Source: Blastocatellia bacterium (lineage in GTDB: Bacteria; Acidobacteriota; Blastocatellia; UBA7656). From it: DNA of 64,000 nucleotides. The position numbers and the translations under genes were made by a program. The notes beneath the pieces were generated by a model. The model did no database searches. It was not told where the DNA came from and was given only the letters and a program-made list of their open reading frames with translations. The DNA is taken from NCBI GenBank assembly GCA_036277095.1, contig DASUNP010000004.1, positions 115,300 to 179,299 on the forward strand. The letters run 5' to 3'. Positions 1,470-58,841 of this stretch are shown piece by piece (the first letter of the stretch is position 1; the number at the start of each line of letters is the position of its first letter).

Positions 1470-2705
1470 ATGAATGATGGTGTAGCACTCGATGTGCTTG
1501 CAAAGAACCAGGATTTATTACGCGGCTCATTGGAGACTCTGGATCAAGAGGCCATAGTTAAGGCCTTTCTCTGGCTTAATGGCGAGGGGTCTTTCCCCTA
1601 TCCATCATCTATCCATTTAGACCTGACACTCAGATGCTCCGCCCGTTGCGCCCATTGCATGCAATGGGCATGGCCTGATCACGCAGAGCTCACGCTTTCC
1701 CAGCTCAAACAGCTCTTCGAAGTTTTCAGCTCGTGGGGAGTAAAAACTATAACCTTCGGTGGAGGCAACCCCCTGCTCCACGACCATTTCATTCCAGCGA
1801 TCAAGATGGCGTGTGAGGCTAAAATGGAAGTGGGCATTATTTCCGAGGGCATGGAAATGTCTAGCGAGCTGGCCAGCGCCATCTGTAAATATGGAAGGTG
1901 GATACGTTTCTCCTTAGACGGCCCGACACCTGAGATTCACGATAGCATTCGCAATGCTCCAGGATTGTTTAACCTTGTTTTATCCTGCATTGAATCTCTT
2001 CAAGCGGTTCCCAGCCCGTTACTAATCGGCCTTAATTGTGTTGTGCAAAAAAAGAATGTCAGCTCGCTGGCGGGGATGACTGAGCTTGCTGAGCGGATAG
2101 GTGTAGATACCCTACTATTCAAGATTCCTCACGGCGACGATCCCAACTCTCGTTTCTTGCCGTCCATAAATGAATGGAGAATGTTTGTTGAATGGATTCA
2201 CGCAACCGCTGATAAAAAGAGCTCCGTAAGAAACAATTTGAAAGAGCTGTCAGAATTGCTCGCTCCTGTATTTCTCGAAGAGGATGTTGTCGCCGGCAGG
2301 CCCGTAAGGGAATTCTACAAGCGAATAAATGCTCGTTGCTTTGCGCCCTTCTTCTTTCTCGTGTGCGATTCGGAAGGCAATGCTTACCCGTGCGATTATC
2401 TTCAGGCAGATACTCGCCAGTGGGGCGGTAAGTATGTGAATATTCGCAATGAATTCCGTTTGGGCAATATTCTGGAGGACAGTCAGGGAGTAATCGATAG
2501 ACTGGCGAGCATGATGCGCGAGCGAGTTCACCGTTTGCCAGGCTGCGGCTATGATGAATGCGGCTGCTGTACGCGCTTCTTCCAATTGAATGCCGCTCTC
2601 ACAAGTATCGATGATGGGCTGAAGAATCTGGCTGTTGATAGGAAGACTGTCCGCGAGCGGATCGCGCAAGTAAAGAACGAAGGCCCCGGCGCGTCGTTTT
2701 TGTAA
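1470..2705 (+). CDS. radical SAM enzyme with C-terminal SPASM domain (peptide/protein-modifying maturase family)
   Basis: CxxxCxxC cluster CSARCAHC near the N-terminus. C-terminal Cys-rich SPASM-like region: CFAPFFFLVCDSEGNAYPCDY ... LPGCGYDECGCC. GC about 48-50%, lower than neighbouring genes. Confidence 0.85.
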   Translation: MNDGVALDVLAKNQDLLRGSLETLDQEAIVKAFLWLNGEGSFPYPSSIHLDLTLRCSARCAHCMQWAWPDHAELTLSQLKQLFEVFSSWGVKTITFGGGNPLLHDHFIPAIKMACEAKMEVGIISEGMEMSSELASAICKYGRWIRFSLDGPTPEIHDSIRNAPGLFNLVLSCIESLQAVPSPLLIGLNCVVQKKNVSSLAGMTELAERIGVDTLLFKIPHGDDPNSRFLPSINEWRMFVEWIHATADKKSSVRNNLKELSELLAPVFLEEDVVAGRPVREFYKRINARCFAPFFFLVCDSEGNAYPCDYLQADTRQWGGKYVNIRNEFRLGNILEDSQGVIDRLASMMRERVHRLPGCGYDECGCCTRFFQLNAALTSIDDGLKNLAVDRKTVRERIAQVKNEGPGASFL

Positions 2706-2717
2706 TCCTTAGACGGT

Positions 2718-3704
2718 TTGAGAACTCTTATGCCTCATGTATTCATTAGCTATTCGCACGACGATGAAGACAAAGCTCGGACCGTGAAGGACTATCTAGC
2801 GGATGCCGGGATCAAAGCGTTTATCGATACCTCGAAGCTAAAGGCAGGCGACGAATGGCGCATAGAATTGCAATCCGCTTTGGATAGCGCGTTCGCGGTC
2901 ATCGTCATCTGTACAAAGGCTTCGATGGCATCGCAAGAAGTTGCGTTTGAGTGGGCTTATGCGATGGGACAAGGCACGATAATTATTCCTTTGATTTACG
3001 AGCCTGATACCCGGATTCATTCACGTTTGCAAACGCTTCAGCATCTTCAGTTTTCCGATCCGCGTCAGCGCCCGTGGGGAACGCTAACCAAATTTCTTTC
3101 AGACGCGCGCGATAATTATGAGCCGACATCGGCGTTTCTGCGGCAAGCCGGTATTTTCCGAATCGTTTACTCCCGGTCCGATTTGGGCCAGGAATACTCG
3201 ATTTCAGGCATATTGAATCAGGTTAAAGCGAGCGCTGAATTACTCGTCATCTCGCGCAGCGGAGAGGCTTGGGCTAGAGAGTTTAATCATATGCAAACCG
3301 CGCTGAACGAAAAATCTTTGCATATCAGGCTCGCCCTTGTTAACCCTGACATTCCCAGAGAGCAATGGATGATACGGTCAGATTACGCACATTCGGACAC
3401 TGGATCAACTGTAAGCAAACTGAATCAGATAAAGATTGAGCAAAGCTCTAAAGGCATTCTTCAGGTTTATTATCTGCCGAGCTCTCCATTATTCTCTTTT
3501 GTTCATTTCGAGGATCAAGACAGCAACAAATGGGGAATTCTCGAAGCGGGAGCTGGTCTGCCTTTAAACGAACGCACAATTCTGATATTGAAGTCAGGCG
3601 ATCACGAGGAAGGATTGATCCTGAAAAGAATACACAAAATATATGCCAGTGTGTTGAAAGATTTGAGTCCCGTTATCGATCTTCGCTCATTAGCAGCGGG
3701 CTAG
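2718..3704 (+). CDS. TIR-domain protein with uncharacterised C-terminal domain of about 200 aa
   Basis: N-terminus reads VFISYSHDDEDKARTVKDYLADAGIKAFIDTSKLKAGDEWRIELQSALDSAFAVIVICTKAS, the canonical start of a bacterial TIR domain. The ORF track begins at a TTG (2718). The first ATG is at 2730 (MPHVFISY), which is the likelier start. It lies 13-25 nt after the rSAM stop. GC is low, about 48%. Confidence 0.8.
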   Translation: MRTLMPHVFISYSHDDEDKARTVKDYLADAGIKAFIDTSKLKAGDEWRIELQSALDSAFAVIVICTKASMASQEVAFEWAYAMGQGTIIIPLIYEPDTRIHSRLQTLQHLQFSDPRQRPWGTLTKFLSDARDNYEPTSAFLRQAGIFRIVYSRSDLGQEYSISGILNQVKASAELLVISRSGEAWAREFNHMQTALNEKSLHIRLALVNPDIPREQWMIRSDYAHSDTGSTVSKLNQIKIEQSSKGILQVYYLPSSPLFSFVHFEDQDSNKWGILEAGAGLPLNERTILILKSGDHEEGLILKRIHKIYASVLKDLSPVIDLRSLAAG

Positions 3705-4599: not shown

Positions 4600-4950
4600 C
4601 TAAGGGCTGCGCAGGTAGGCGTCGTCGCCCTGCTCCCAGTCTGAGCGCGGCGGCGAGAAAACGTCAAGCGCGTCTGTGTCTTCTACTGCTTCGACGTAGT
4701 GGGTTGCGAAGGGCGGAATCTGAATGGTCTCGCCCGACCGCACTATGATCTCGTCACCGTCGACTATGAATTTGAGCGCGCCCGTGATGACAGTCGACAT
4801 CTGTTCGTTCGCGTGGCTGTGGGCTTGAACGAGGCACCCTTTCTTTAGGAAGAACCTTGCCATTGTGACGTTGGTGCTTGAAATATAGCGGCGAGTTAAT
4901 AGATCTGTGATCTGTTCGCTCTCAATATCGTTCCAGTTGTGAAGCTTCAT
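4600..4950 (-). CDS. cupin domain protein
   Basis: Small 116-aa protein with a two-His cupin signature (GCLVQAHSHANEQMSTVITG ... PPFATHYVE). Confidence 0.65.
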   Translation of the reverse strand: MKLHNWNDIESEQITDLLTRRYISSTNVTMARFFLKKGCLVQAHSHANEQMSTVITGALKFIVDGDEIIVRSGETIQIPPFATHYVEAVEDTDALDVFSPPRSDWEQGDDAYLRSP

Positions 4951-4975
4951 ATCGACCTCCGGACGAACCCTATTT

Positions 4976-5563
4976 CTACACAGTTAACGCTTCATGCTCA
5001 AGAGACGCCATCTCGATAAAAAGTGAATGAACGCGGTTGTCGCTTGTAAGCTCAGGGTGAAAAGTTGCGGCGAGCAAGTTGTTCTGCCTAACAAGAACCG
5101 GCTCGCCATTTATCGTTGAAAGCGTTTCGACGCCCGCGCCGATGCGCGTGATTCGCGGAGCGCGGATAAAGACTGCTTCCATCGGCCCATCCCCGAGCGA
5201 CGTGTCGACCTTTCGGATGAAGCTATCGATCTGCCGCCCGTAAGAATTCCGCTCTACGATGATGTCCATCAGCCCGAGCGACTGTTGCTCGGGGTTATGA
5301 ACTTCGCTCGCCAGCAGGATCGCGCCCGCGCAAGTGCCGAAGACAGCCTTTCCCGCACGCGCAAATTCCCTGATCGGATCGACCAAATACTCTTCGAGCA
5401 TGACCTTGAGAATGGTAGTGCTCTCGCCGCCCGGGATAATCAACCCGTCGAGCATTGCGAGTTGCTCGGCGCGGCGGACTTCAACCGGCTCGACGCCCGA
5501 GCGAGCAAGCACGCGCGCGTGCGCCGCGAAATCTCCCTGGATTGCGAGAACCCCAACCTTCAT
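4976..5563 (-). CDS. pdxT: pyridoxal 5'-phosphate synthase glutaminase subunit PdxT
   Basis: Class I glutamine amidotransferase: GLIIPGGESTT, catalytic GTCAG, C-terminal HPE. Immediately downstream of pdxS. Confidence 0.9.
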   Translation of the reverse strand: MKVGVLAIQGDFAAHARVLARSGVEPVEVRRAEQLAMLDGLIIPGGESTTILKVMLEEYLVDPIREFARAGKAVFGTCAGAILLASEVHNPEQQSLGLMDIIVERNSYGRQIDSFIRKVDTSLGDGPMEAVFIRAPRITRIGAGVETLSTINGEPVLVRQNNLLAATFHPELTSDNRVHSLFIEMASLEHEALTV

Positions 5564-5564
5564 G

Positions 5565-5670
5565 ATTTTGGATTTTAGATTTTAGATTTTGGATTGACGG
5601 AGTTGGATATAGACTTACGTCAGCAGGTTAAAGCTCTGCAATCCAAAATCCAAAATCCAAAATCCAAAAT
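5565..5670. repeat. imperfect inverted repeat built from tandem heptamers (ATTTTGG/ATTTTAG x4 ... CCAAAAT x4) with a loop of about 45 nt, in the pdxS-pdxT intergenic spacer
   Basis: Direct reading. Left arm attttggattttagattttagattttggatt (5565-5595). Right arm aatccaaaatccaaaatccaaaatccaaaat (5640-5670). The arms are reverse complements apart from two G/A differences. Confidence 0.7.
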
Positions 5671-5674
5671 CGAT

Positions 5675-6565
5675 TTACCAGCCTCTCGTCTGTAGCAATT
5701 CGCTTTCGGCCATCTTCGCGACATCAAGCCCACGCATCGCCTCGCCAAGCTCTTCGCTGGCTTCGAGAATCGCTTTCGGGTCACGGAAGTGAGTCGTCGC
5801 TTTCACGATAGCCCGCGCGCGAACTGCGGGGTCCGTAGATTTGAAAATGCCTGAGCCGACGAATACCGATTCGGCGCCAAGCTGCATGCAGAGCGCGGCG
5901 TCGGCGGGCGTAGCCACGCCGCCCGCTGCAAAGTTAGGCACGGGTAACCGCCCGTCGCGCGCGACCATTCGCACTATCTCGTAGGGAGCGCCGAGATTCT
6001 TGGCTTCGGCCATCAACTCTTCCTGCCCGAGAATAGTGAGGCGCTTGATCTCGTTATGAATTCGCCTCAGATGCCGGACCGCTTCGACGATATTACCCGA
6101 CCCGGCTTCGCCTTTGGTGCGCATCATTGCCGCGCCTTCTCCGATTCGGCGCAAAGCTTCTCCGAGGTTACGCGCCCCGCAGACGAAAGGCACTTTGAAA
6201 GCGTGCTTATCGATGTGATGTTCTTCGTCGGCGGGCGTCAGCACTTCGCTTTCATCTATGAAATCTACGCCGAGAGCCTCAAGCACCTGTGCCTCGACCA
6301 GGTGGCCTATGCGGACTTTCGCCATGACAGGAATTGTGACTGCGGCCATGATCTCGCGAATCTTTTTCGGCGAGGCCATGCGCGCGACGCCGCCTTCTGC
6401 ACGGATGTCTGCGGGCACGCGCTCAAGCGCCATCACCGCAACCGCGCCCGCCTCTTCGGCTATCCTTGCCTGCTCGGCGTCGGTCACGTCCATTATCACT
6501 CCGCCTTTCAGCATCTCTGCCAGGCCTGTCTTCAAGCGAATTGAATTGTCAGTCATCTCTTTCAC
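5675..6565 (-). CDS. pdxS: pyridoxal 5'-phosphate synthase lyase subunit PdxS
   Basis: Full-length match to the PdxS/SNZ family (GGVIMDV..., ...[15 protein letters not shown]...GEAGSGN...). Confidence 0.95.
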
Positions 6566-6567
6566 TC

Positions 6568-7479
6568 CTACGACAGAAGAATCTCGCCGCGCCCCGTTAT
6601 CACAACTCCGCCTCCGACGCGGATCGCGGTTACTTCCTTCGTGCTGGTATCTGTGTCTACTTCGATGTGAAGCAGGCTGGGCCGCTTCATCTCAAATCCT
6701 TGCTCGCTGATGATCTTTGTCGTGGCCGATGGCTCCACCATCCCATGCCTGACCATGTAAAAACCGAGAGGCCCGTTAGCCGACCCCGTCGCAGCATCTT
6801 CGAGTACTCCTGCCGCTGGCGCGAAGACTCGACAGTGAGCCGCGCTCGTGGGCTCGACGGTTTCGCGAGTGAACACCAGTACTGTCGCGGCTCCCATCTC
6901 GCGGCTGATAGCTTCTAACTTATTCGCGTCGACTCTGATTCTCTGCACGGCGTCGAGCGACGCGGCGGAGGCTATCAATACGGTTATGCCGTTGTAGATC
7001 GCCTCTGCCGGAAGCTCCGCCAAATCGCCCGTGTCGAGCGAGAGCGCCTGGGCGAGCCTCGCCCTGTCAGAGAAAGTCCCTTTTATCTGAGGCAGGGGCT
7101 GCGTCATCGTCGTGTGTCCCGCGCGGTCGCTCTCTGTATTCACGGTTACGCGAATCGGGCCGACTCCTGTTTCAAGCACCACCGTTGTCTCGCCGCCGGT
7201 CCACGCCTTCATGCGGTCTGCGACTATGACGTGGCCCGTGCCTACGCAGGGGTGTCCGGCAAAGGGGAGCTCCTCTGCGGGCGTGAATATCCTCACGCGG
7301 TAGTCGCCACCCTCTTCAGGCGGTAAAAGGAAAGTGGTTTCGGAATAATTCATCTCGCGCGCAATATTCTGCATCGTTGAAGTGTCAAGCCCCTCCCCGT
7401 CGATGAAGACCGCGAGCTGGTTTCCGCCGAAGCGCTGCTCAGTGAAAACATCTGCGATGACAAAGCTTCTGTTCCTCAT
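6568..7479 (-). CDS. PhzF family isomerase (phenazine biosynthesis protein PhzF-like)
   Basis: PhzF/YddE signature: [14 protein letters not shown]...[11 protein letters not shown]...[19 protein letters not shown]. Its start overlaps the stop of the upstream aminotransferase by 4 nt. Confidence 0.85.
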
Positions 7480-8708: not shown

Positions 8709-10226
8709 CTAGACCAGCGCGCGATACCCTTCCGATTTGCGAAGCGCGCGCGGCTGTTTTCTTGTCGTCATCCTTGCCTTGATTACAGCCCCAAGGCGTT
8801 TGATTCCTTCTTCGATTAAAGGGGGACTTGCCATCGTGAAACAGAGCCGCATCATATTCATCTTCGGCGCGGTTGAATAGAAATGGCTCCCCGGACTGAA
8901 GATCACTCCGTTCTCTGCCGCATGGACTAGAACCTCGTCCGCGTTTAGCATCCCCGGTAGCGTGACCCATACAGCCATGCCGCCGGCGGGACGTGTCCAC
9001 TTTGCCTCCGCCGGAAAATGCTTCTCAAGCGCCTGGAGCATGGCGTCTCGCTGCTGGCGATAAGCCCTTCTCACGCGCTTGATATGTTTTTGTAAAAGGC
9101 CATGCCGCGAGAATTCATAGACCGCCGCCTGTGTAAGCAGGCTCGCATGCAGATCGCAATGCTGCTTTGCCACGTTCAGGTGATCGATGACCTCGCGAGG
9201 CGCTACGATCCAGCCTACGCGCAAGCCCGGAAAACCGACTTTTGAAAAACTGCCGATCGAGATCACAACGCCGTGATCGTCGAGCGCTTTAAGGGATGGG
9301 AGCGTTGGCCCGTCGTAACGCAGCTCACTGTAAATATCATCTTCGATGATCGGAACGCGGTGCTTTATTGCCAGCCCCAGCAGCCTGTGGCGCGCGAGCA
9401 TATCCAGAGTCGTTCCGGTAGGGTTTTGATAGGTCGGCACGGTGTAAATAAGCTTGGGCCTGCGACGCGACAAAACGTCTTCGAGCGTATCCAGGTCCAT
9501 CCCCTTGTCCGTCACGGGCACGCTTATGAACTTTGACCCCGCCCCGCAGAAAATGCTCAACGCACCCGGGTAGGTCGGATTCTCCAAGACCACTTCGTCG
9601 CCGGGCCCGACAAAGACCCTCCTCATCAAATCGAGCGACTGCTGGCAACCGTTTGTAATCAGTAATTCGGCAGGCTTCGCGTCAATGCCCGAAGCCGACA
9701 GTTGCGAGCTGAGGGATTGCCGGAGCGGCTCGTAGCCGCTGCTCATTCCTAGTTGAAGCAAGTTTCTGCCGTCCCGCCTCAGCACGCGGTCCACGCAGCG
9801 TCGAAACTCGTCGAGCGGGAACATCTCCGCCTGCGGGAGCCCCCACGCCAGCGAGATAGTCTCCTTTCGCTGTTGGGCGTGGAGCAGGGGACTGAGCCAG
9901 ATGTCCCCCGTCTGGTCGGCCAGCAGCGAGTCCCACACGATTGGAGAAGCCACAACCGGAGCGGCCGGCGCGCGACTCTTTGGAACCGCGCTGACAAAAG
10001 TGCCACGCCCTACGTGAGAAGTAATCAACCCGTCGGCTTCAAGCTCGGCATAAGCATTGCTCACCGTCGTGCGGTTCACGCCAAGCGTTTCGGCAAGCTC
10101 GCGATTGGCAGGCAACCGGTCGCCGACCTTCAACGCGCCGCGCGAGATCATCTCGCGGACCTGCGTGACCACCTGTAGGTAGAGCGGAATGCGGCTTTTT
10201 CGGTCGAGCTCAAGAATCATCATCAA
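8709..10226 (-). CDS. MocR/GntR-family transcriptional regulator with aminotransferase-like domain (PdxR-like)
   Basis: N-terminal GntR wHTH (IPLYLQVVTQVREMISRGALKVGDRLPANRELAETLGVNRTTVSNAYAELEADGLI). It is fused to a roughly 400-aa aminotransferase-like domain (SFSKVGFPGLRVGW). Sits upstream of, and co-oriented with, the aminotransferase-phzF-pdxS-pdxT string. Confidence 0.85.
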   Translation of the reverse strand: MMMILELDRKSRIPLYLQVVTQVREMISRGALKVGDRLPANRELAETLGVNRTTVSNAYAELEADGLITSHVGRGTFVSAVPKSRAPAAPVVASPIVWDSLLADQTGDIWLSPLLHAQQRKETISLAWGLPQAEMFPLDEFRRCVDRVLRRDGRNLLQLGMSSGYEPLRQSLSSQLSASGIDAKPAELLITNGCQQSLDLMRRVFVGPGDEVVLENPTYPGALSIFCGAGSKFISVPVTDKGMDLDTLEDVLSRRRPKLIYTVPTYQNPTGTTLDMLARHRLLGLAIKHRVPIIEDDIYSELRYDGPTLPSLKALDDHGVVISIGSFSKVGFPGLRVGWIVAPREVIDHLNVAKQHCDLHASLLTQAAVYEFSRHGLLQKHIKRVRRAYRQQRDAMLQALEKHFPAEAKWTRPAGGMAVWVTLPGMLNADEVLVHAAENGVIFSPGSHFYSTAPKMNMMRLCFTMASPPLIEEGIKRLGAVIKARMTTRKQPRALRKSEGYRALV

Positions 10227-17436: not shown

Positions 17437-17439
17437 AAT

Positions 17440-17509
17440 CAGAATCAGAAGTCAGGAGTCAGAAATCAGAATCTTTATTTGCTCCATGTCCTCATTCTGA
17501 CTTCTGACT
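17440..17509. repeat. hairpin built from TCAGAA-like tandem repeats between the hom stop and the lysC start
   Basis: Left arm gagtcagaaatcagaat (17456-17472) pairs with right arm attctgacttctgact (17494-17509) over 16 bp with one mismatch. The loop is about 21 nt. The right arm overlaps the hom stop codon. Confidence 0.6.
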
Positions 17510-18773
17510 ACTCAAAGACTCGAAGCACGAGGCCGATGCGCAGTGTCGTCGCCTGAGCTTCGATCTCGCGGATCGCGCGCGCGACGTTGCGCTCGCTGCT
17601 GCGATGAGTGAGCAGAATGATGGTCGCGTCCCCCGTGTCGGTCACTCCCCGCTGCACAAGACTGTGAAGGCTTACCTGATGGCTGCCAAGGGCGTGGCCT
17701 ATATTACCTATCACGCCCGGCGAGTCCTGGGTTTCAAGACGGATATAAAACGCGCTCTCGCCGTCTTCGACAGAACAGACCGGGACTTCGCTCGCATCTA
17801 TTGTGGGCTGAAAGTAAGGCGCGAAATCAGGCAGCCTGAGCGCGCTGGCGAGGTTTATCAAATCCCCCACGACCGCGCTTGCCGTCGGCATCTGGCCAGC
17901 TCCGGGGCCAACGAGCATCACCTGCCCAACGGCGTCACCGCTAATAAAAATTGCGTTGTTTGCTCCCTCGACCGACGCGAGCAAGTGATGCAAAGGGACT
18001 AGCATCGGGTGGGCGCGAACGTCTAGACACCCGTCGCCTCTGCGCGCGAGCCCAATCATCTTCACTCTGTAACCGAACTCTTTTGCGGTCTTCATGTCCA
18101 CGTCGGTCACTGCCGAGATTCCTTGCCTGTAAACCGATTCGGCATCCACGAAACGACCGAAGGCAAGCGAAGCCAGAATGGTTATCTTGTAAGCCACGTC
18201 GAAGCCTTCAACGTCGTTGGTCGGGTCCGATTCGGCAAAGCCGAGCTGTTGCGCGCCACTGAGCGCTTCATCGAAGCTTTGGCCGCGCCCTTCCATCTCT
18301 GAGAGGATGTAATTAGTCGTACCGTTCAGAATACCCGCTACGCTCGAAATCTTGTTCGCCTCCAGGCCCCGTTGAATAGTCGAGATCAGCGGAATGCCGC
18401 CGCCGACCGCAGCCTCGAAGAGGATCGTGACGTTGTGATGATTGGCCCGATCGAAAAGCTCGGAGCCATGCGTCGCTATCAGCTCTTTATTCGCAGTGAC
18501 AACATGCTTGCCCTGCTCTATGGCGCTTCTAATAACTTCGTAAATAGGCTTGATCCCGCCCGCGACTTCGATAATTATCTCGACCTCCGGGTCTCGGACG
18601 ATCTCCATTGGGTCTTCGGTCAGGCGAACCGTCGAAAGGTCCACCTTGCGCGCCTTCGTTTTATCGCGCACCGCCACCCACTTGATTCTGAAGCGCGGGT
18701 CGTCCGATAAGAGTTTGATTACGCCTGTCCCGACTGTGCCGAGGCCGAGTATGCCTAAAGTAATCTTCGCCAT
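17508..18773 (-). CDS. hom: homoserine dehydrogenase
   Basis: NAD-binding GILGLGTVGTGV, catalytic domain and C-terminal ACT domain. Start trimmed to MAKITLGILG. Confidence 0.85.
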   Translation of the reverse strand: MAKITLGILGLGTVGTGVIKLLSDDPRFRIKWVAVRDKTKARKVDLSTVRLTEDPMEIVRDPEVEIIIEVAGGIKPIYEVIRSAIEQGKHVVTANKELIATHGSELFDRANHHNVTILFEAAVGGGIPLISTIQRGLEANKISSVAGILNGTTNYILSEMEGRGQSFDEALSGAQQLGFAESDPTNDVEGFDVAYKITILASLAFGRFVDAESVYRQGISAVTDVDMKTAKEFGYRVKMIGLARRGDGCLDVRAHPMLVPLHHLLASVEGANNAIFISGDAVGQVMLVGPGAGQMPTASAVVGDLINLASALRLPDFAPYFQPTIDASEVPVCSVEDGESAFYIRLETQDSPGVIGNIGHALGSHQVSLHSLVQRGVTDTGDATIILLTHRSSERNVARAIREIEAQATTLRIGLVLRVFE

Positions 18774-18910: not shown

Positions 18911-19477
18911 ATGCGAATCTCGAAGGTCTATACGAAGACGGGCGATGGCGGGGAGACTTCGCTCGTCGGCGGCGCGCGCGTGAGCAAGGCCAGCCCGCGC
19001 GTAGATGCCTACGGCGATGTCGACGAGCTTAATTCTCTGATCGGACTCGCCCGCTCGCTTGGCGATGACAGTGAGATAGATGAAACGCTGGCCCTGATCC
19101 AGAATGATCTTTTTACCGTCGGCGGAGACCTGGCTTCGCCTCTGGGGATCGAAGTCCCTCGCGTGGCCGAGAGCTTCGTCACGACTCTTGAAGAATTATC
19201 CGATCGCTTCCTCAAAGAGCTGGAGCCGTTAAAGGAATTTATCCTGCCGGGCGGGTGCGAAGCGGGCGCGACTCTCCACCTTGCGCGAACGGTCGCCCGC
19301 CGCGCGGAACGGCGCGTGGTCGCTCTGGCCGAAACGGAAGAAATCAATTCTGAAACGATCGTTTATCTGAACAGGCTCTCGGACCTGCTCTTCATCCTTG
19401 CGAGGAGCGTCAACCGCCGCGCGGGCGTGCCGGAAAAAATGACGGATTTCAGCAGGAGGAGCCGTACTAAGTCCTGA
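18911..19477 (+). CDS. ATP:cob(I)alamin adenosyltransferase, PduO type
   Basis: [18 protein letters not shown]...[15 protein letters not shown] is the hallmark N-terminus of PduO/MMAB-type adenosyltransferases. Confidence 0.8.
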
Positions 19478-19518
19478 GTGCTGAGTGCTGAGTATTATCT
19501 TTTACTCAGCACTCAGGA
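19473..19518 (+). terminator. stem-loop (15-bp perfect stem, GAGTGCT x2 tandem unit) directly after the adenosyltransferase stop and before accD
   Basis: cctgagtgctgagtgctgagta (19473-19494), loop ttatctttt, then tactcagcactcagg (19504-19518). No U-tract follows, so it may be a processing or stability element rather than a canonical intrinsic terminator. Confidence 0.5.
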
Positions 19519-19530
19519 CTTTCAAAAGCT

Positions 19531-32970: not shown

Positions 32971-32993
32971 GGCTGATTTATGAGAACTGGATT

Positions 32994-33083
32994 CACCGCA
33001 GAGACGCAGAGAACACAGAGTTCACGCAGAGCAGAATTATGTTCTCTCTGCGCCCGCTCTGTGTTCTCTGCGTCTCTGCGGTG
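32994..33083. repeat. 27-bp perfect inverted repeat (CGCAGAGA-type tandem units) flanking a 36-nt loop that itself carries a nested imperfect inverted repeat
   Basis: caccgcagagacgcagagaacacagag (32994-33020) ... ctctgtgttctctgcgtctctgcggtg (33057-83). The arms are exact reverse complements. The inner loop holds cgcagagcagaa/ttctctctgcg. It lies between the VWA paralog stop and the ABC exporter start. Confidence 0.75.
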
Positions 33084-33213
33084 AAGAATGACTTTTCCTT
33101 CCCGATACTTCTCCTTGCCCTCTACTGAATCGTCCTGCCTTCGCCTTGACGGTTGACCTCTCAAGCGTATAATCAATCGTTTAATCAGGGCTCGCCCCCG
33201 CAGACATGAATCA

Positions 33214-43279: not shown

Positions 43280-44041
43280 ATGTGGGAGCGGACGAAACGG
43301 CTGATTAATTCTTATCTCGATGACCTGATCGAGCGGACGAGCGGGCCGGACCGCGACATACGCCAGATCACGCGCGCCGAGATCGCACGGCTCAACGAGC
43401 TTGAGGTACAGGCTCGCGCTTCGATCAAGATGCTTGAGAAGGAATTGGCCGAAGTTGAATTAAAGATGATAGCGCTCTCCGAGCGCCAGCGAATTGCCGC
43501 CGAGCGCGGTGACGCCGCAGCGGCAAGCTCGGCATCGAGCGAGCTCGTCTCGCTTTCATCGCACCGCGATTTTCTTAAACAACAGATAACCGAGGCGAAC
43601 TCGTCCGCCGCGCGCGCGCAGGCGCTCAGGGAACAGCGCCGCGCTATGGGAAACGAACTGGCGAACGAAACCTATCTGACCTCGATGCGAGAAAACATAG
43701 CCGGGCTTCAGTCTCCGTTTGACAAGAACGACCCGTCGGCAACGATAGACGAAATGCGCGCCCGGCTATCAAAGTATTCTGAACCGACAGTCGATTCGCG
43801 CGTGGCCGAAGCCGACCGCGAGCTTGAGGCTCAGCGAGCGCACTCGCAGGTCGATGAAATGCTCGCCCGCTACAAGCAATCTGTGAACGATCCTCCCGCT
43901 GCGTCGCGGGAGGCTGTCTCCCCGCCAGCGCAAACGCAGCCCGCAGCTTCCGCGCCGTCGAACGCTACGCCCGAAGACCAAGAGCCTGAACAGCCGAAAT
44001 CGCTCGGGCGCAACGAAGGCCCTGTGCGCCCGATTGATTGA
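43280..44041 (+). CDS. PspA/IM30 (phage-shock protein A / Vipp1) family protein
   Basis: MWERTKRLINSYLDDLIERTSGPDRDIRQITRAEIARLNELEVQAR parallels the PspA N-terminus (..[35 protein letters not shown]). Long coiled coil. Start trimmed to MWERTK. Confidence 0.65.
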   Translation: MWERTKRLINSYLDDLIERTSGPDRDIRQITRAEIARLNELEVQARASIKMLEKELAEVELKMIALSERQRIAAERGDAAAASSASSELVSLSSHRDFLKQQITEANSSAARAQALREQRRAMGNELANETYLTSMRENIAGLQSPFDKNDPSATIDEMRARLSKYSEPTVDSRVAEADRELEAQRAHSQVDEMLARYKQSVNDPPAASREAVSPPAQTQPAASAPSNATPEDQEPEQPKSLGRNEGPVRPID

Positions 44042-44058
44042 ATCACAAATTGATTGAA

Positions 44059-45573
44059 TCACAATCGGCTCTCTTCAAGTTCTTGAGTCACTGTTCGAAC
44101 CGCGAGCGGCAAACGGCATCGAAAAACCGTGCCTGTGTTGTCACTCTTTTCGACCGCGACATCCCCTCCGTGAGCTACGAGAATCTTCTGAACGATTGCA
44201 AGCCCAATCCCGTACCCCCGCGATTTCGTCGTGAAGAACGGTATGAAGATTCTATGCAAGTCGGTCGATGAAATGCCTCCGCCCGTGTCGCTGATGCGGA
44301 TGTTTGCATAGCGCCGGTCAGGCCCCGCGTCAATCGAGCCTGTGATCGAAATGAGCCGGCGCTCCGACTCGTTATCGATGGCTTCCGCCGCGTTGCGGAC
44401 AAGGTTGGAAATGGCGCTCCTTAGCAATGTCTCGTCGCCCGGAAGGTCAGGGAAGTCGCCTTCGACCTTCAGCTCGATCTGTTTCAGTTTGAGCTGTGGA
44501 TTTATCTCCTTAGCGCAATCATCGATGATCGAACGCAGGCTGATCTTCGAGAGGCTGAGCGTCTGCGGGCGCGCGAAATTCAAAAAGTCCGTCACCAACC
44601 GGGCCAGCATCCTTACTTCGTTGAGTGTTGCGTCGAGCGTCTGCCGCTTCTTGTCCTCCAAGGCTGAAGAGTCGCTCTGCGCGTCGAGCAACTGGACATA
44701 TCCGTGAATGGTCGCCAGGGAGTTCTTAAACTCGTGAGCAAGCCCCGCTGCCATCTCGCCCAGATTGGCAAGGCTCTCTTGAAGTTTCATTCGCTCGCGA
44801 AGCTCAATCACTTCGGTCAAATCAGTCATCATGCAGAGCGCGCCTTCGACGGCCCTGTCCGTGTCCGTGATGGGAGAGATGCTCAGGCCAAGATGACGCA
44901 CGCGGCCGTCTGCGAGCGTGACGTCGACCTCCTCGCGGCGAAAGGACTTGCCCGACGAAAGGCACTCAGAGAGAAGGTCGATCAATCGCGGCGCGGAGCC
45001 GAAGAAGTGCCGATAATCGACCTCAAATGCTTGCAACCCGTCTTCCGCGTCAAAGGTCTGTTGTTCGCCCGCGCGAGCATCCAGCCCGGAGAGAATTCTT
45101 CCGGCATGTGGGTTAGCAGTCGTGACGCGCCCCCTGGAATCGATGGCAACCAGCCCGCTCGGAATGTTGGCGATCAAGCGCTCGCTGAATCGCTCGCTTC
45201 TTTCGGCTCGCCTGCGCTCAAGCGCATGAAGCTCGGCAAGCTCCCTCTCTTTGGCTTGAAGCTGCTCGACCAGGGCTTGAAAAGTTTCGACCACAAACTC
45301 GCTTTCGCTCTTCGCCGACAGCGCGTGGACGGGGCTGCCGCGCGCCGCCTCAACCATGCGGCGGTAAGGCCGTAGCAGCCACCTGACGAAGAGGAATGTG
45401 AGGCCGAGGCCGAAAATGAGAGCGACTACGAGGAAGCTGAAAACGTATGAGGCAGCGGGCGACGAAGCGCGCTCGACAGGGCGCGCGATCAGCACGACCC
45501 CAAGCCCTATCGTTATGAGCAGGACTCCGATCAACAGGGCTATGAAGAGACGGGCTCTGCTTTCGACCCTCAT
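44059..45573 (-). CDS. sensor histidine kinase (two TM segments, PAS-like, HisKA, HATPase_c)
   Basis: H-box LGEMAAGLAHEFKNSLATIHGY. N/G boxes LVRNAAEAI...DTGGGI...GYGIGLAIVQKIL. Confidence 0.85.
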   Translation of the reverse strand: MRVESRARLFIALLIGVLLITIGLGVVLIARPVERASSPAASYVFSFLVVALIFGLGLTFLFVRWLLRPYRRMVEAARGSPVHALSAKSESEFVVETFQALVEQLQAKERELAELHALERRRAERSERFSERLIANIPSGLVAIDSRGRVTTANPHAGRILSGLDARAGEQQTFDAEDGLQAFEVDYRHFFGSAPRLIDLLSECLSSGKSFRREEVDVTLADGRVRHLGLSISPITDTDRAVEGALCMMTDLTEVIELRERMKLQESLANLGEMAAGLAHEFKNSLATIHGYVQLLDAQSDSSALEDKKRQTLDATLNEVRMLARLVTDFLNFARPQTLSLSKISLRSIIDDCAKEINPQLKLKQIELKVEGDFPDLPGDETLLRSAISNLVRNAAEAIDNESERRLISITGSIDAGPDRRYANIRISDTGGGISSTDLHRIFIPFFTTKSRGYGIGLAIVQKILVAHGGDVAVEKSDNTGTVFRCRLPLAVRTVTQELEESRL

Positions 45574-50831: not shown

Positions 50832-50880
50832 CCGGAGCGGCAAGATTAGCACAAACCGCAGAGGCGTTCCAAATACCAGG

Positions 50881-50910
50881 AAGATTATTAAACTGAAGAT
50901 TATTAAACTG
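50881..50910. repeat. perfect tandem direct repeat, 2 x 15 bp (AAGATTATTAAACTG)
   Basis: aagattattaaactg aagattattaaactg. It overlaps the stop of the 137-aa ORF and lies about 30-50 nt upstream of the acyl-CoA dehydrogenase start (minus strand). AT-rich in a GC-rich context. Confidence 0.7.
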
Positions 50911-56822: not shown

Positions 56823-58841
56823 ATGAATCTCAAGGTTTCGGTAAGGTTGACGGCTCTGGCAGCGGTCATGCTCATGGTCACAGGGTTAAGCGTAACGTCA
56901 TTTTCGCAGCAGAGCCGGCCCCGCTATAACCAGCGAACATATGGCGGTGGCGGGTGGACACTCCCTCCTGACACCATCATCAGCATGAGAATGGACCAGA
57001 CCTTAAGCTCGAAGAGTTCGCGGGTCGGAGACAGGTTTACCGCATCGGTGACGGAGCCGGTCCAGGCGAACGGCCGTGTAGTCATACCAGCGGGGACAAT
57101 CGTTGAGGGGCGTGTAACACAGGTGACGCCTGCAAAAAGAATGAGCAAGGCAGGGATGATCGCGATCGACTTTGATTCGATTACTATGCCTGACGGCAGA
57201 AGGGTTCCTCTGGTCGGGAGTCTCACATCGGACGATCCCGAAATCCGCCGAAGGATCGATGATGAGAATTCTGTTCGCGGGCCTAACAGTGATCGTAAGG
57301 CTGTATTTGTCGGCGGGGGTGGCACGCTAGGGGCCGTGCTCGGCGGGATCGCAGGCGGCGGAAAAGGCGCGGTTATAGGCGGTATCGCCGGTGCAGGCGT
57401 GGGCATAGCCGGAGTGCTCTTGTCGAAAGGCGAAGAGGCTGAGGTACGAGCGGGAACGCCTTTTGGGATACAACTGCGGCAGCCGCTTTCGATGCGCGGT
57501 GACCCGAACTATGACAATAGCCCCGGCGGTTATAGTTCTCGTGATAATAATTCACGTGATAACAATTCTCGCGCGGGTGAAACCAGGCCACGTCCGAACC
57601 GTGACCCCGGGCCTGATTATGACCGCCCAGGCCGGAGGGACTCAGAGCCTCGCAATTATCCTGATCGAAGACCTCAACCCGAACCTGAAGAGTCGGACCC
57701 GGATGATGTTCCCGTGGAGCCTGCGCGCGAGCCCGCGCGTGACCCGGAGCCGGTCAGGAGGACTGAATCGACCGCAAACCCTGAGCCGGCAGCCAGCGAC
57801 CCCGAGCCTGAGCCGGTGGCTGTAAACCTGCCGCTCTCATCGGCTGAGATGATCCGCCGCGCCCAGGTCGCTATGCGGCATCAAGGTTATTACGAGGGTC
57901 CGCTTGACGGCGTCATGACTCCGAGAACTTCGAACTCACTTAAGACCTATCAGCGCGAGAATAACCTTCCGCAGACGGGCGACCTCGACCCGACGACGGC
58001 AGACAAGCTTGGCATCACGAAGGCTACCCCCGCGAACGCGCGCAGAGAGACTCGTCCGCCGCAAAGCCAGCCGCGGCCTTCGGGCAGCGCAGGCGCGAGC
58101 GATCCGGCGACGGATGACAGAGTCGTCCTCGCAAATGTGCTTTCGGCGACAGCCAACCGCGTTGCGGACGGCTCACTCTACATATTGATAAACACGCAGG
58201 CAAACACGGGTGGGTGGCGATGGTTTGGCGAGCCGGTCGCTAACGGCGACACGCTTGAAGTCTACGCGCGCGCGGTCAAGCCAGACGGCATGGTTACGCA
58301 AGCTTTGACTCGCGGCAGGATTGAATTGAATGTAAAAGAGGGCGTTGATCTGGTGCGGCGAGTCGTAGTCCACGGCGCCGCAGGCAACATCACGATCCCG
58401 CTCGGCAGCACTACGCGACCGAGCGAGTCGAGCAGCAGCCGGGCGAGCGAACCGCAATCTTCGCCCGTGAGCAACATTCAGCGTCAAGCCGAGCAACTCT
58501 TATCCGATTACAAGCGCCAGATAGGCGTTCGGTCGTCGGGGTCGCGAACTGAGATCGATTCGCGATACGGAGAGCCTGAAATCGAATTGCTGTTGGCGCT
58601 TGAAAGTTTTGCCAACGCTGCGCGGCACTATAACAATCTGATCCCGGGGATACAAGACAGGCAATCTGCGCGCAGCGCGACGCTCTCGCTGGCGAGGGAG
58701 GCCAGAAAGACTGACCGCGTAATAACTACTACTTCAAGCTCATTAGCCGATTCGGTCAACAGGGGCTGGGACGGCATCAGGTTAGAGGTTTTAAAACTCA
58801 TCAAGGCCCACAACATCAGCTCGTCAGACCTGGATGATTAA
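56823..58841 (+). CDS. secreted multidomain protein: Gly-zipper module + Pro/Glu-rich linker + putative peptidoglycan-binding domain + uncharacterised C-terminal domain
   Basis: Signal peptide MNLKVSVRLTALAAVMLMVTGLSVTSFSQQ. Module GDRFTASVTEPVQANGRVVIPAGTIVEGRVTQVTPA plus GGGGTLGAVLGGIAGGGKGAVIGGIAGAGVGIAGVLL, paralogous to 42098-42814. PG_binding_1-like segment MIRRAQVAMRHQGYYEGPLDGVMTPRTSNSLKTYQRENNLPQTGDLD. Confidence 0.65.
   Translation: MNLKVSVRLTALAAVMLMVTGLSVTSFSQQSRPRYNQRTYGGGGWTLPPDTIISMRMDQTLSSKSSRVGDRFTASVTEPVQANGRVVIPAGTIVEGRVTQVTPAKRMSKAGMIAIDFDSITMPDGRRVPLVGSLTSDDPEIRRRIDDENSVRGPNSDRKAVFVGGGGTLGAVLGGIAGGGKGAVIGGIAGAGVGIAGVLLSKGEEAEVRAGTPFGIQLRQPLSMRGDPNYDNSPGGYSSRDNNSRDNNSRAGETRPRPNRDPGPDYDRPGRRDSEPRNYPDRRPQPEPEESDPDDVPVEPAREPARDPEPVRRTESTANPEPAASDPEPEPVAVNLPLSSAEMIRRAQVAMRHQGYYEGPLDGVMTPRTSNSLKTYQRENNLPQTGDLDPTTADKLGITKATPANARRETRPPQSQPRPSGSAGASDPATDDRVVLANVLSATANRVADGSLYILINTQANTGGWRWFGEPVANGDTLEVYARAVKPDGMVTQALTRGRIELNVKEGVDLVRRVVVHGAAGNITIPLGSTTRPSESSSSRASEPQSSPVSNIQRQAEQLLSDYKRQIGVRSSGSRTEIDSRYGEPEIELLLALESFANAARHYNNLIPGIQDRQSARSATLSLAREARKTDRVITTTSSSLADSVNRGWDGIRLEVLKLIKAHNISSSDLDD

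What the first reader, a model, noticed from the sequence alone, without database searches (positions are those of the whole stretch)
5565..5670. Large heptamer-repeat hairpin splitting the pdxS-pdxT bicistron
Seen in sequence. The 111-nt pdxS-pdxT spacer is almost entirely one inverted repeat made of four tandem ATTTTGG-like units on each arm (attttggattttagattttagattttggatt ... aatccaaaatccaaaatccaaaatccaaaat) around a loop of about 45 nt.

Inference. In the mRNA this would form a stable roughly 30-bp stem just upstream of the pdxT start codon. It is positioned to act as an attenuator, a processing or stability element, or a device for differential expression of synthase versus glutaminase. 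Tandem heptamers are also slippage-prone, so the arm length could be phase-variable.
Basis: seen in the sequence. Interest (0 to 1): 0.5.

Follow-up and report, generated by a model that had tools for sequence, protein, structure and literature searches.

The report
Heptamer-repeat palindrome in pdxS-pdxT junction
The hairpin between the two vitamin-B6 synthase genes is real, but it is one copy of a widespread, poorly understood kind of repeat palindrome found at bacterial gene boundaries, inserted recently here, and not an ancient control switch for these genes.

Summary
The 111-nt pdxS-pdxT spacer holds two 33-nt arms, each 4.6 tandem heptamers (GATTTTG/A facing CAAAATC), around a unique 42-nt loop. 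The mRNA strand folds at -50 kcal/mol (z = -7).

It is not a pdxST-specific device. The window has three more tandem-repeat hairpins in unrelated operon junctions. In 2.3 Mb of fetched DNA I found 85 such palindromes. They share four traits:
- period 7;
- arms of about 4.5 units (30-32 nt);
- the G-rich arm always 5';
- a frequent habit of filling a stop-to-start junction completely.

Seven of the eight nearest relatives have a pdxS-pdxT junction of -7 to +16 nt and no hairpin. Only the closest (PdxT 90%) shares it, with the same unit number and a diverged loop. So it is a lineage-specific insertion into a once-coupled junction, and no copy-number variation was seen.

Mismatches across the class show no sense-strand wobble bias (20 vs 15). 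Paired convergent heptamer repeats are described in Xanthomonas, and a heptamer-repeat hairpin cut by RNase III in Haemophilus.

Inferred effect: the insert loops out, keeps stop and start adjacent, and buries the pdxT initiation region. What generates these elements is unknown.

The parts
5675..6565 (-). pdxS (PLP synthase subunit). Its stop codon UAA is at 5677-5675.
   Evidence: ORF; Pfam SOR_SNZ 3.7e-106; sequence read.
5682..5687 (-). SD-like GAGAGG inside the pdxS 3' end. It lies 10 nt from the pdxT AUG if the palindrome is looped out.
   Evidence: Read from the sequence. It is conserved in the hairpin-less relatives L202-L204. Its function is inferred, not tested.
5672..5674 (-). 3-nt linker (AUC) between the pdxS stop codon and the base of the stem.
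5639..5671 (-). 5' arm in the mRNA: (GAUUUUG)x4 + GAUUG, 33 nt, G-rich and C-free.
5597..5638 (-). Unique 42-nt loop. No similarity elsewhere in the window or in the 270 fetched loci, except weak homology to the L271 loop.
5564..5596 (-). 3' arm in the mRNA: CAAUC CAAAAUC UAAAAUC UAAAAUC CAAAAUC, directly abutting the AUG. The two U (complements of + strand A5577 and A5584) give G:U pairs.
4976..5563 (-). pdxT (glutaminase subunit). Its start codon AUG is at 5563-5561, 0 nt after the stem.
   Evidence: ORF; Pfam SNO 4.4e-57; identical protein in NCBI and Logan records.

Best explanation
What it is. The spacer is filled by one member of a class of DNA elements: palindromes whose two arms are tandem heptanucleotide arrays of about 4.5 units, with the G-rich array 5' and its complement 3', around an unrelated loop.

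How it got here. In this Blastocatellia lineage one such element was inserted into, or grew within, a pdxS-pdxT junction that was ancestrally only -7 to +16 nt long and probably translationally coupled. It has been inherited only by the window's organism and its closest sampled relative. It is therefore not an ancestral pdxST regulator.

How it arises (inferred, mechanism unknown). It is made and turned over at the DNA level by a process that acts at many gene boundaries. Strand slippage, followed by copying of the array in inverted orientation through a template switch, is one candidate.

How it acts (inferred).
- Because it is transcribed within the operon, it must fold into a 33-bp hairpin.
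- The hairpin starts 3 nt after the pdxS UAA and ends at the pdxT AUG.
- This loops the 108-nt insert out, so stop codon, SD-like GAGAGG and AUG stay juxtaposed. That would explain why the insertion is tolerated in a coupled junction.
- The fold also buries positions -1 to -33 of pdxT.
- pdxT translation should then depend on ribosomes terminating at pdxS unzipping the stem base, and/or on RNase III cutting the long perfect duplex.
For: Anatomy and stability.

Membership of a class.
- The window holds three further tandem-repeat hairpins in co-directional junctions, with different units (TCAGAAG, AGTGCTG, CGCAGAGA).
- The census of 2.27 Mb found 85 hairpin pairs, 77 of period 7. The 5' arm has G>C in 75 against 7 (p = 1.7e-15); for units unrelated to the search probe, 30 against 7. 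Arm length peaks at 30-32 nt.
- Arrays with units unrelated to the probe show the 4.5-unit mode too, while periods 5, 6, 8 and 9 decay monotonically.
- 23 of 72 hairpins fill a same-strand stop-to-start junction, against 3.9% for random placement.

Lineage-specific insertion.
- L202-L205 and L272-L275 (PdxT 81-89%, same gene order) have junctions of -7 to +16 nt and no hairpin.
- L271 (PdxT 90%) has the same (GATTTTG)n element. Its loop is homologous but only about 55-60% identical, and its unit number is the same.

DNA-level rather than RNA-selected complementarity: sense-strand G:U against A:C is 20 vs 15 (p = 0.5) in 23 well-oriented hairpins.

Effect on the pdxT initiation region: the opening energy is 18.7 kcal/mol in the window and 17.9 in L001, against 2.9-12.6 in orthologues without a hairpin.

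Precedents.
- Xanthomonas GGGAATC repeats are mostly four units, and 70-75 pairs per genome lie in convergent orientation (PMC4692102).
- The H. influenzae hmw (ATCTTTC)n 5'-UTR hairpin is processed by RNase III (PMC12721329).
Against: - No transcript data exist, so folding in vivo, RNase III cleavage and termination-reinitiation are all inferred.
- In both inherited pairs the arms are far better conserved than the loops: window vs L271, and L195 vs L200 (33/33 and 26/30 in the arms against 69% in the loop). That is what selection on the stem would also produce, so a selected function is not excluded.
- Both mismatches in this copy are G:U on the mRNA strand.
- A distant relative (L001, PdxT 67%) carries an independent hairpin with another unit in the same junction. 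This hints at a hot spot, or at a need for a hairpin there.
- The generating mechanism is unknown. Simple slippage predicts neither the 4.5-unit mode nor the polarity.
Confidence: 0.55

Rival explanations
1. Dedicated post-transcriptional regulator of pdxST. The hairpin was selected to set the PdxS:PdxT ratio by attenuating, processing or stabilising the bicistronic mRNA.
For: - It sits exactly between stop and start, and the fold is very stable.
- It sequesters the pdxT initiation region.
- The arms are conserved while the loop diverged between the window and L271.
- Both mismatches are G:U on the sense strand.
- L001 has another hairpin at the same junction.
Against: - It is absent from 7 of the 8 nearest relatives, which keep a tight junction.
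- Identical architecture occurs at unrelated junctions: hom to aspartate kinase, adenosyltransferase to accD, and VWA to ABC transporter.
- There is no class-wide wobble bias.
- There is no U-tract and no Rfam family at gathering score.
- In L271 the 3' arm is split by a 28-nt insertion, yet pdxT is intact.
Confidence: 0.15
2. A foldback or MITE-like mobile element. The heptamer arrays would be terminal inverted repeats recognised by a transposase, and the element was inserted by transposition.
For: - Presence or absence is abrupt between close relatives.
- (GATTTTG)n arrays occur in at least 120 unrelated metagenome contigs, 29 of them as the same palindrome.
- The junction element was replaced wholesale between L172 and L276, whose flanks are 97% identical.
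- An inverted partner accompanies GATTTTG arrays (5 of 31) but not two permuted units (0 of 34) in viral contigs.
Against: - Loops are unrelated between copies, apart from the one orthologous pair L195/L200.
- There is no target-site duplication at this copy.
- Every copy in the window has a different unit, so there is no common transposase-binding end.
- Arrays of composition-matched permuted heptamers are about half as frequent, not absent (31 vs 15 and 19 loci).
- No transposase lies next to any copy examined.
Confidence: 0.15
3. A phase-variable contingency locus. Slippage of the heptamers changes arm length and switches pdxT expression.
For: Tandem heptamers are classic slippage substrates, and H. 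influenzae hmw is the precedent (PMC12721329).
Against: - The unit number is the same in the window, in the independent assembly L081, and (once the insertion is removed) in L271.
- It is the same in L195 and L200, although their loops have diverged by 31%.
- The class has a narrow 4.5-unit mode rather than a broad spread.
- pdxST is a housekeeping cofactor pathway.
Confidence: 0.05
4. An element that acts only at the DNA level, as a cruciform, a protein-binding site or a replication or recombination signal, with no consequence for the mRNA.
For: - Mismatches are strand-symmetric.
- Both strands fold equally well.
- The palindromes occur between convergent and divergent genes too.
Against: - The polarity is defined relative to gene ends, even for unpaired arrays. 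Sense C>G is 29 vs 12 just upstream of starts, and sense G>C is 33 vs 12 just downstream of stops. That points to expression-level constraints.
- Inside an operon the element cannot avoid being transcribed.
Confidence: 0.1

Closest known systems
Paired (convergent) GGGAATC heptanucleotide repeats of Xanthomonas, and heptamer long simple-sequence repeats in general (Rehm et al. 2015, PMC4692102; Mrazek et al. 2007 as cited there and in PMC4679880)
   Same: - Tandem 7-nt units, mostly about four per array.
- About 90% are intergenic.
- 70-75 pairs per genome, with one array on each strand in convergent orientation. That is the G-rich array first on either strand, the polarity found here.
- Position is often kept between related species.
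- Function is unknown.
   Different: - The unit here (GATTTTG) has no G-tract, so the G-quadruplex explanation offered for Xanthomonas and Nostoc cannot apply.
- The host is Acidobacteriota (Blastocatellia).
- Each copy in this genome uses a different unit.
- This copy fills a stop-to-start operon junction.
Haemophilus influenzae hmw1A 5'-UTR (ATCTTTC)n hairpin processed by RNase III (PMC12721329)
   Same: - A transcribed heptanucleotide repeat forms one arm of a long RNA hairpin immediately upstream of a coding region.
- A long duplex of this kind is an RNase III substrate, and its processing changes expression.
   Different: - There only one arm is the repeat array, and the other is a G-rich non-repeat region.
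- There the repeat (pyrimidine-rich) arm is 5'.
- There the repeat number is highly variable and drives phase variation. Here both arms are arrays, the number looks fixed, and RNase III cleavage is untested.
REP/BIME extragenic palindromes and their role as intercistronic mRNA stabilisers
   Same: Intergenic palindromes, often inside operons, that form RNA hairpins and can uncouple the fate of upstream and downstream cistrons.
   Different: REPs are 20-40 bp, share one family sequence in many copies, carry a GTAG or CGTC tag, and are linked to RAYT transposases (PMC3733652 abstract). Here the stems are built of tandem heptamers and differ in sequence at every locus, and no tag is present.
TAACTGA heptamer direct repeats upstream of start codons in Beggiatoaceae, Cyanobacteria and Bacteroidetes (PMC4679880)
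   Same: Intergenic heptamer arrays of 2-6 units, ending a few nt (most often 1 nt) before a start codon in a fixed orientation relative to the gene.
   Different: Those are almost all direct, unpaired arrays of one unit (one inverted case in 170). Here the arrays are paired into a hairpin.
Hairpin between SD and start codon in phage T4 genes 38 and 25 (from my own knowledge, not checked here)
   Same: A stem-loop is looped out so that separated translation signals come into functional spacing.
   Different: Those hairpins are short (about 20-30 nt) and not repeat-built. The analogy is mechanistic only.

Membership tests
Paired heptanucleotide simple-sequence repeats (heptamer LSSR pairs, Xanthomonas type) | Tandem repeats with a 7-nt unit, at least 2 units and typically about 4 | tested here: met
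   TRF gives period 7 and 4.6 copies on each arm.
Paired heptanucleotide simple-sequence repeats (heptamer LSSR pairs, Xanthomonas type) | Two arrays close together, one on each strand, in convergent orientation (G-rich array 5' on either strand) | tested here: met
   Arms 5564-5596 and 5639-5671. The 5' arm has G 8, C 0. The class-wide count is 75 vs 7.
Paired heptanucleotide simple-sequence repeats (heptamer LSSR pairs, Xanthomonas type) | Intergenic location | tested here: met
   It lies entirely within the 111-nt pdxS-pdxT spacer.
G-quadruplex-forming heptamer repeats (GGGAATC / GGGGAYT subclass) | A G-tract of at least 3 G in each unit | tested here: not met
   The unit GATTTTG gives at most GG.
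REP / BIME | Many near-identical copies of one 20-40 bp palindrome per genome, with a GTAG or CGTC head | tested here: not met
   There is no second copy of the arm sequence in 64 kb, other hairpins have other sequences, and there is no GTAG/CGTC tag at the ends.
MITE / foldback transposon | Terminal inverted repeats plus target-site duplication, and multiple copies sharing internal sequence | tested here: not met
   No direct duplication flanks the element. The loop is unique. Loops of 46 elements are unrelated except for one orthologous pair.
Intrinsic (Rho-independent) terminator / attenuator | GC-rich stem followed by a U-tract | tested here: not met
   The stem is 24% G+C and is followed by AUGAAGG. 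The consensus scan finds none in the spacer. Only 8 of 72 class members have a T-rich tail on either strand.
Phase-variable SSR contingency locus | Repeat number varies between close strains or samples | tested here: not met
   The arm is the same in L081, the unit number is the same in L271, and likewise in L195/L200. The sample is small.
RNase III-processed heptamer-repeat hairpin (hmw type) | Cleavage of the stem by RNase III with an effect on expression | not testable with these tools
   The 33-bp near-perfect duplex meets the general length requirement for RNase III (my own knowledge). No transcript data are available.
Any curated RNA family (Rfam 15) | Match at gathering score | tested here: not met
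   The only hits are sub-threshold matches to plant and animal miRNA precursors (38.8 bits at best, against cut-offs of 60-135). That is the signature of a generic long hairpin.

The most novel reading that the evidence does not exclude
These palindromes are the product of a dedicated, still unidentified system active in some bacterial lineages. The system would write heptamer arrays of about 32 nt (7 x 4.5), together with their inverted copies, precisely at gene boundaries. The polarity would be gene-relative: G-rich after stop codons, C-rich before start codons. Whole junction elements would be replaced between near-identical strains. The elements would then act as modular operon 'punctuation', as RNase III or coupling hairpins. 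This would amount to a bacterial counterpart of foldback elements, with a new mechanism of origin.
Probability: 0.2. Interest if true: 0.75.

Novelty: new member of a known kind. Interest (0 to 1): 0.45.

Why it matters
For pdxST itself the result is deflating. The hairpin is a recent passenger, not a conserved control element, so it should not be annotated as a riboregulator.

The class it belongs to is more interesting. Heptanucleotide repeats have been known since 2007 to be the commonest long simple repeats in prokaryotic intergenic DNA, without an accepted explanation. The G-quadruplex idea proposed for Xanthomonas cannot explain AT-rich units such as GATTTTG.

The regularities seen here turn a vague 'slippage' story into specific, testable constraints on mechanism and function:
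- a fixed arm length of about 4.5 units;
- a polarity defined relative to stop and start codons;
- complete filling of coupled junctions;
- conservation of arms but not loops;
- wholesale replacement between strains with 97%-identical flanks.

These palindromes also break short-read assemblies (L081 and L271 end inside them). That matters for the contiguity of metagenome-assembled genomes and for operon annotation.

Tried and rejected
- Rfam, at gathering score over the whole window and at permissive E-values on the spacer: only generic miRNA-precursor-like sub-threshold hits.
- Promoter and terminator consensus scan of 4900-6800: nothing in the spacer. A TAAAAT -10-like hexamer created by the C-to-T variants, 8 nt before the AUG, was considered as a possible promoter for a leaderless pdxT. 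It was dropped because there is no acceptable -35 and the scan reports nothing.
- MITE idea: a search for shared loops, for target-site duplications and for second copies all came back negative.
- Test of RNA-level selection through G:U vs A:C on the sense strand: 31 vs 21 with rough gene calls (counted by hand from the table) and 20 vs 15 with strict junction calls. Neither is significant, so the two G:U pairs in this copy carry no weight.
- Is GATTTTG a special unit? Two composition-matched permutations are about half as frequent in viral contigs (31 vs 15 and 19 loci). The unit is therefore not unique, although only GATTTTG arrays had inverted partners.
- Loop flipped between the window and L271? 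The flipped alignment is not better than chance (p = 0.24). The same orientation gives p = 0.024.
Spread of GATTTTG palindromes beyond Acidobacteriota is therefore not shown.
- Ideas that sequence-specific proteins bind the units (CspB-type heptamer binding, HutP UAG-N4 spacing, CsrA GGA) were considered and set aside. Units differ completely between copies.
- Literature searches for a description in Acidobacteria found none in the held library. Mrazek et al. 2007 is not held.

Full report

pdxT (4976-5563, minus strand; Pfam SNO) and pdxS (5675-6565, minus strand; SOR_SNZ) are separated by 111 nt. The spacer contains an inverted repeat with arms 5564-5596 and 5639-5671. Each arm is 33 nt, the arms are 94% complementary, and 42 nt lie between them. 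Each arm is 4.6 tandem copies of a heptamer.

In the mRNA sense the junction reads: UAA, AUC, (GAUUUUG)x4 GAUUG, a 42-nt loop, CAAUC CAAAAUC UAAAAUC UAAAAUC CAAAAUC, AUG. The mRNA strand folds at -50.3 kcal/mol, against -24.0 +/- 3.7 for shuffles (z = -7.1). The opposite strand folds equally well. A three-unit probe matches nowhere else in the window, and 0 matches are expected by chance.

An independent assembly of another run carries the identical 3' arm and pdxT, and ends inside the palindrome. The element is therefore not an assembly artefact.

2. It is not unique to pdxST.

The window contains three more hairpins whose arms are tandem short repeats, each with a different unit:
- 17437-17512, (TCAGAAG)n, in the homoserine dehydrogenase to aspartate kinase junction;
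- 19466-19522, (AGTGCTG)n, in the cobalamin adenosyltransferase to accD-like junction (-40.7 kcal/mol, z = -6.1);
- 32992-33085, the octamer CGCAGAGA, between a VWA protein and an ABC transporter (-78.5 kcal/mol, z = -10.9).

The organism is a Blastocatellia (Acidobacteriota) bacterium.

3. The comparative test.

I retrieved the pdxS-pdxT junction from 80 Acidobacteriota genomes. Most have spacers of -11 to +50 nt.

Eight close relatives were then found through PdxT:
- Seven of them (PdxT 81-89% identical, with the same gene order: GntR-aminotransferase, aminotransferase, PhzF, pdxS, pdxT, cupin, GNAT) have junctions of -7 to +16 nt and no hairpin.
- There are no heptamer hairpins anywhere in the three 20-kb loci among them.
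- The closest relative (90%; L271, a contig that starts inside the 5' arm) does carry the same (GATTTTG)n palindrome.

In L271 the 5' arm is identical over the 27 nt available. The 42-nt loop is homologous but only about 55-60% identical (p = 0.024). The 3' arm has the same 4.4 units, but a 28-nt GC-rich palindromic insertion splits it.

The element was therefore acquired after the split from the 89% relatives and inherited since. It is an insertion into a previously tight junction.

A more distant genome (L001, PdxT 67%, DNA about 71%) has an independent hairpin in the same junction, built from a different heptamer (AAGTGAC; -55.8 kcal/mol).

4. The class.

Of these, 29 carried the same palindrome architecture, with unrelated loops of 3-157 nt.

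In all DNA held (2.27 Mb) I found 85 hairpins whose two arms are complementary tandem arrays. Their shared properties are:
- 77 of the 85 have period 7.
- The 5' arm has G>C in 75 against 7 (p = 1.7e-15). For units unrelated to the search probe the count is 30 against 7 (p = 2e-4).
- Arm length peaks sharply at 30-32 nt.
- Heptamer arrays with units unrelated to the probe, most of them unpaired, also show the 4.5-unit mode, while arrays of period 5, 6, 8 and 9 decay monotonically.
- 23 of 72 hairpins fill a same-strand junction from stop codon to start codon (both gaps -9 to +20 nt), against 3.9% for random placement.
- The polarity is relative to genes. Unpaired arrays 0-12 nt upstream of a start codon are C-rich in the sense strand (29 vs 12, p = 0.012). 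Those 0-12 nt downstream of a stop codon are G-rich (33 vs 12, p = 0.002).
- Only 8 of 72 have a T-rich tail on either strand, so they are not intrinsic terminators.

5. Selection or homogenisation?

In 23 hairpins whose sense strand is unambiguous, transition mismatches are G:U 20 times and A:C 15 times (p = 0.5). There is thus no class-wide signature of selection for pairing in the sense RNA. The two G:U pairs in the window copy could be chance.

Where an element is inherited, however, the arms are much better conserved than the loop. In L195 vs L200 the arms match at 33/33 and 26/30, against 75/109 in the loop. The window vs L271 shows the same pattern, and the unit number is unchanged in both pairs.

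Conversely, L172 and L276 are 97% identical over the last 86 nt of the upstream kinase gene and identical over the first 23 nt of the downstream gene. Yet they carry completely different palindromes in that junction: GATTTTG arms with an 80-nt loop in one, and GTTCAAA-like arms with a 6-nt loop in the other. Elements are therefore either kept intact or replaced wholesale.

This behaviour, the length mode and the polarity are not what plain replication slippage predicts. I have no mechanism for them.

6. Is it a mobile element?
- Loops are unrelated between copies.
- There is no target duplication.
- Units differ between copies in one genome.
- Two permuted heptamers are about half as common as GATTTTG arrays in viral contigs (31 vs 15 and 19 loci). 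Only GATTTTG arrays had inverted partners there, however (5 of 31 vs 0 of 34).

A classical MITE is therefore rejected. Something foldback-like is not excluded.

7. Consequences for pdxST (inference).

The stem starts 3 nt after the UAA and ends at the base before the AUG. Folding therefore loops the insert out and restores the ancestral geometry. The SD-like GAGAGG (5687-5682), which the hairpin-less relatives conserve, then lies 10 nt from the AUG.

The computed cost of opening pdxT positions -15..+12 is 18.7 kcal/mol, against 2.9-12.6 in orthologues without a hairpin. De novo initiation should therefore be poor.

A ribosome terminating at the UAA would unzip the base of the stem and expose the AUG next to it. 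A 33-bp near-perfect duplex is also the kind of substrate RNase III cuts. This has been shown for the heptamer-repeat hairpin of H. influenzae hmw1A (PMC12721329). None of this could be tested here.

8. Relation to what is known.

Heptanucleotide repeats are the most abundant long simple repeats in many prokaryotic genomes (Mrazek et al. 2007, as summarised in PMC4679880).

In Xanthomonas, GGGAATC arrays are mostly four units long and about 90% intergenic. In 70-75 cases per genome they are paired in convergent orientation on opposite strands, and their function is unknown (PMC4692102). The window element fits that description in every structural respect except the G-tract. It is therefore a new member of that kind, in a new phylum and with a non-G4 unit.

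I found no description of such palindromes in Acidobacteria in the held literature.

9. Verdict.
- The regulatory interpretation is only partly supported: the fold and its position hold, but a dedicated or phase-variable function does not.
- As a pdxST feature, interest is modest.
- The class regularities that turned up along the way are the more valuable lead. They are recorded as unexplained.

Noticed in passing
window 17437-17512: A second heptamer-repeat hairpin, (TCAGAAG)n / (CTTCTGA)n. It fills the junction from the stop codon of the homoserine dehydrogenase gene to the start codon of the aspartate kinase gene on the minus strand. The array next to the start codon has 5 units and the other has 2. 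The fold is weak (z = -1.15).
   Followed up: partly
window 19466-19522: A third heptamer-repeat hairpin, (AGTSCTG)n, between the cobalamin adenosyltransferase and accD-like genes. It has an 18-bp perfect stem (-40.7 kcal/mol, z = -6.1), and the upstream stop codon lies inside the first unit.
   Followed up: partly
window 32992-33085: An octamer-repeat (CGCAGAGA / ACACAGAG) palindrome with 40-nt arms (-78.5 kcal/mol, z = -10.9), between a VWA-domain protein and an ABC transporter. The same unit type recurs in the IMG/VR contigs L218/L223, L213 and L208.
   Followed up: partly
L001 6888-6986: The orthologous pdxS-pdxT spacer of a distant Blastocatellia MAG holds an independent heptamer hairpin with another unit (AAGTGAC / CTTGTCA). 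A variant unit is mirrored in both arms.
   Followed up: partly
L172 3148-3293 vs L276 3034-3100: The same kinase-to-FHA-protein junction occurs in two Pyrinomonadaceae contigs whose flanks are 97% identical. They carry completely different repeat palindromes (GATTTTG arms with an 80-nt loop; GTTCAAA-like arms with a 6-nt loop). The whole spacer differs, including the stop codon.
   Followed up: partly
L195 6238-6407 and L200 4585-4758: An orthologous pair of (GATTTTG)n palindromes abutting a start codon. The arms are 100% and 87% identical and the loop 69%. The 3' arm of L200 shows the same C,T,T,C variant pattern as the window copy.
   Followed up: yes
L043, L050, L070, L071, L076 (Terriglobales pdxT upstream regions): pdxT is separated from pdxS. 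It is preceded by a conserved TATAAAATCAG box and then by CA-rich heptamer arrays (CCAACGA, CCTAAGA) that end 3-6 nt before the ATG, with no obvious SD.
   Followed up: no
L271 89-116: A 28-nt GC-rich palindromic insertion (GCGCTGCGCGAAGCGCATAATGCGCCAC) splits the 3' arm of the sister-lineage hairpin. It may be a small REP-like element.
   Followed up: no
L208, L218 and L223 (IMG/VR contigs 3300035696_002251 and 3300022555_003223): These contigs are saturated with 4.4-4.7-unit heptamer arrays of many different units (about 40 in 14.8 kb of L223), often paired. They are flagged viral, and one ORF looked to me (by eye, untested) like a Mu-type portal protein.
   Followed up: partly
L005 6880-7062: The pdxS-pdxT spacer of an Eisenbacteria MAG is 183 nt of tandem 22-nt units (GACCGGCCCGCAGTCCCGGTAG), folding at -97.7 kcal/mol.
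   Followed up: no
window 8709-10226 (-): The cluster is headed by a GntR-HTH plus aminotransferase-fold protein (MocR/PdxR-like). This is the type of regulator that controls pdxST in other bacteria, and it is a more likely regulator of this operon than the hairpin.
   Followed up: no
window 1470-3704: A radical SAM protein lies next to a TIR_2-domain protein (annotation of the identical Logan contig L081). This may be a defence-related pair.
   Followed up: no
window 44033-44064, 50880-50910, 57532-57568: Short AT-rich tandem duplications of 15-16 nt units (2-2.5 copies) in intergenic DNA.
   Followed up: no
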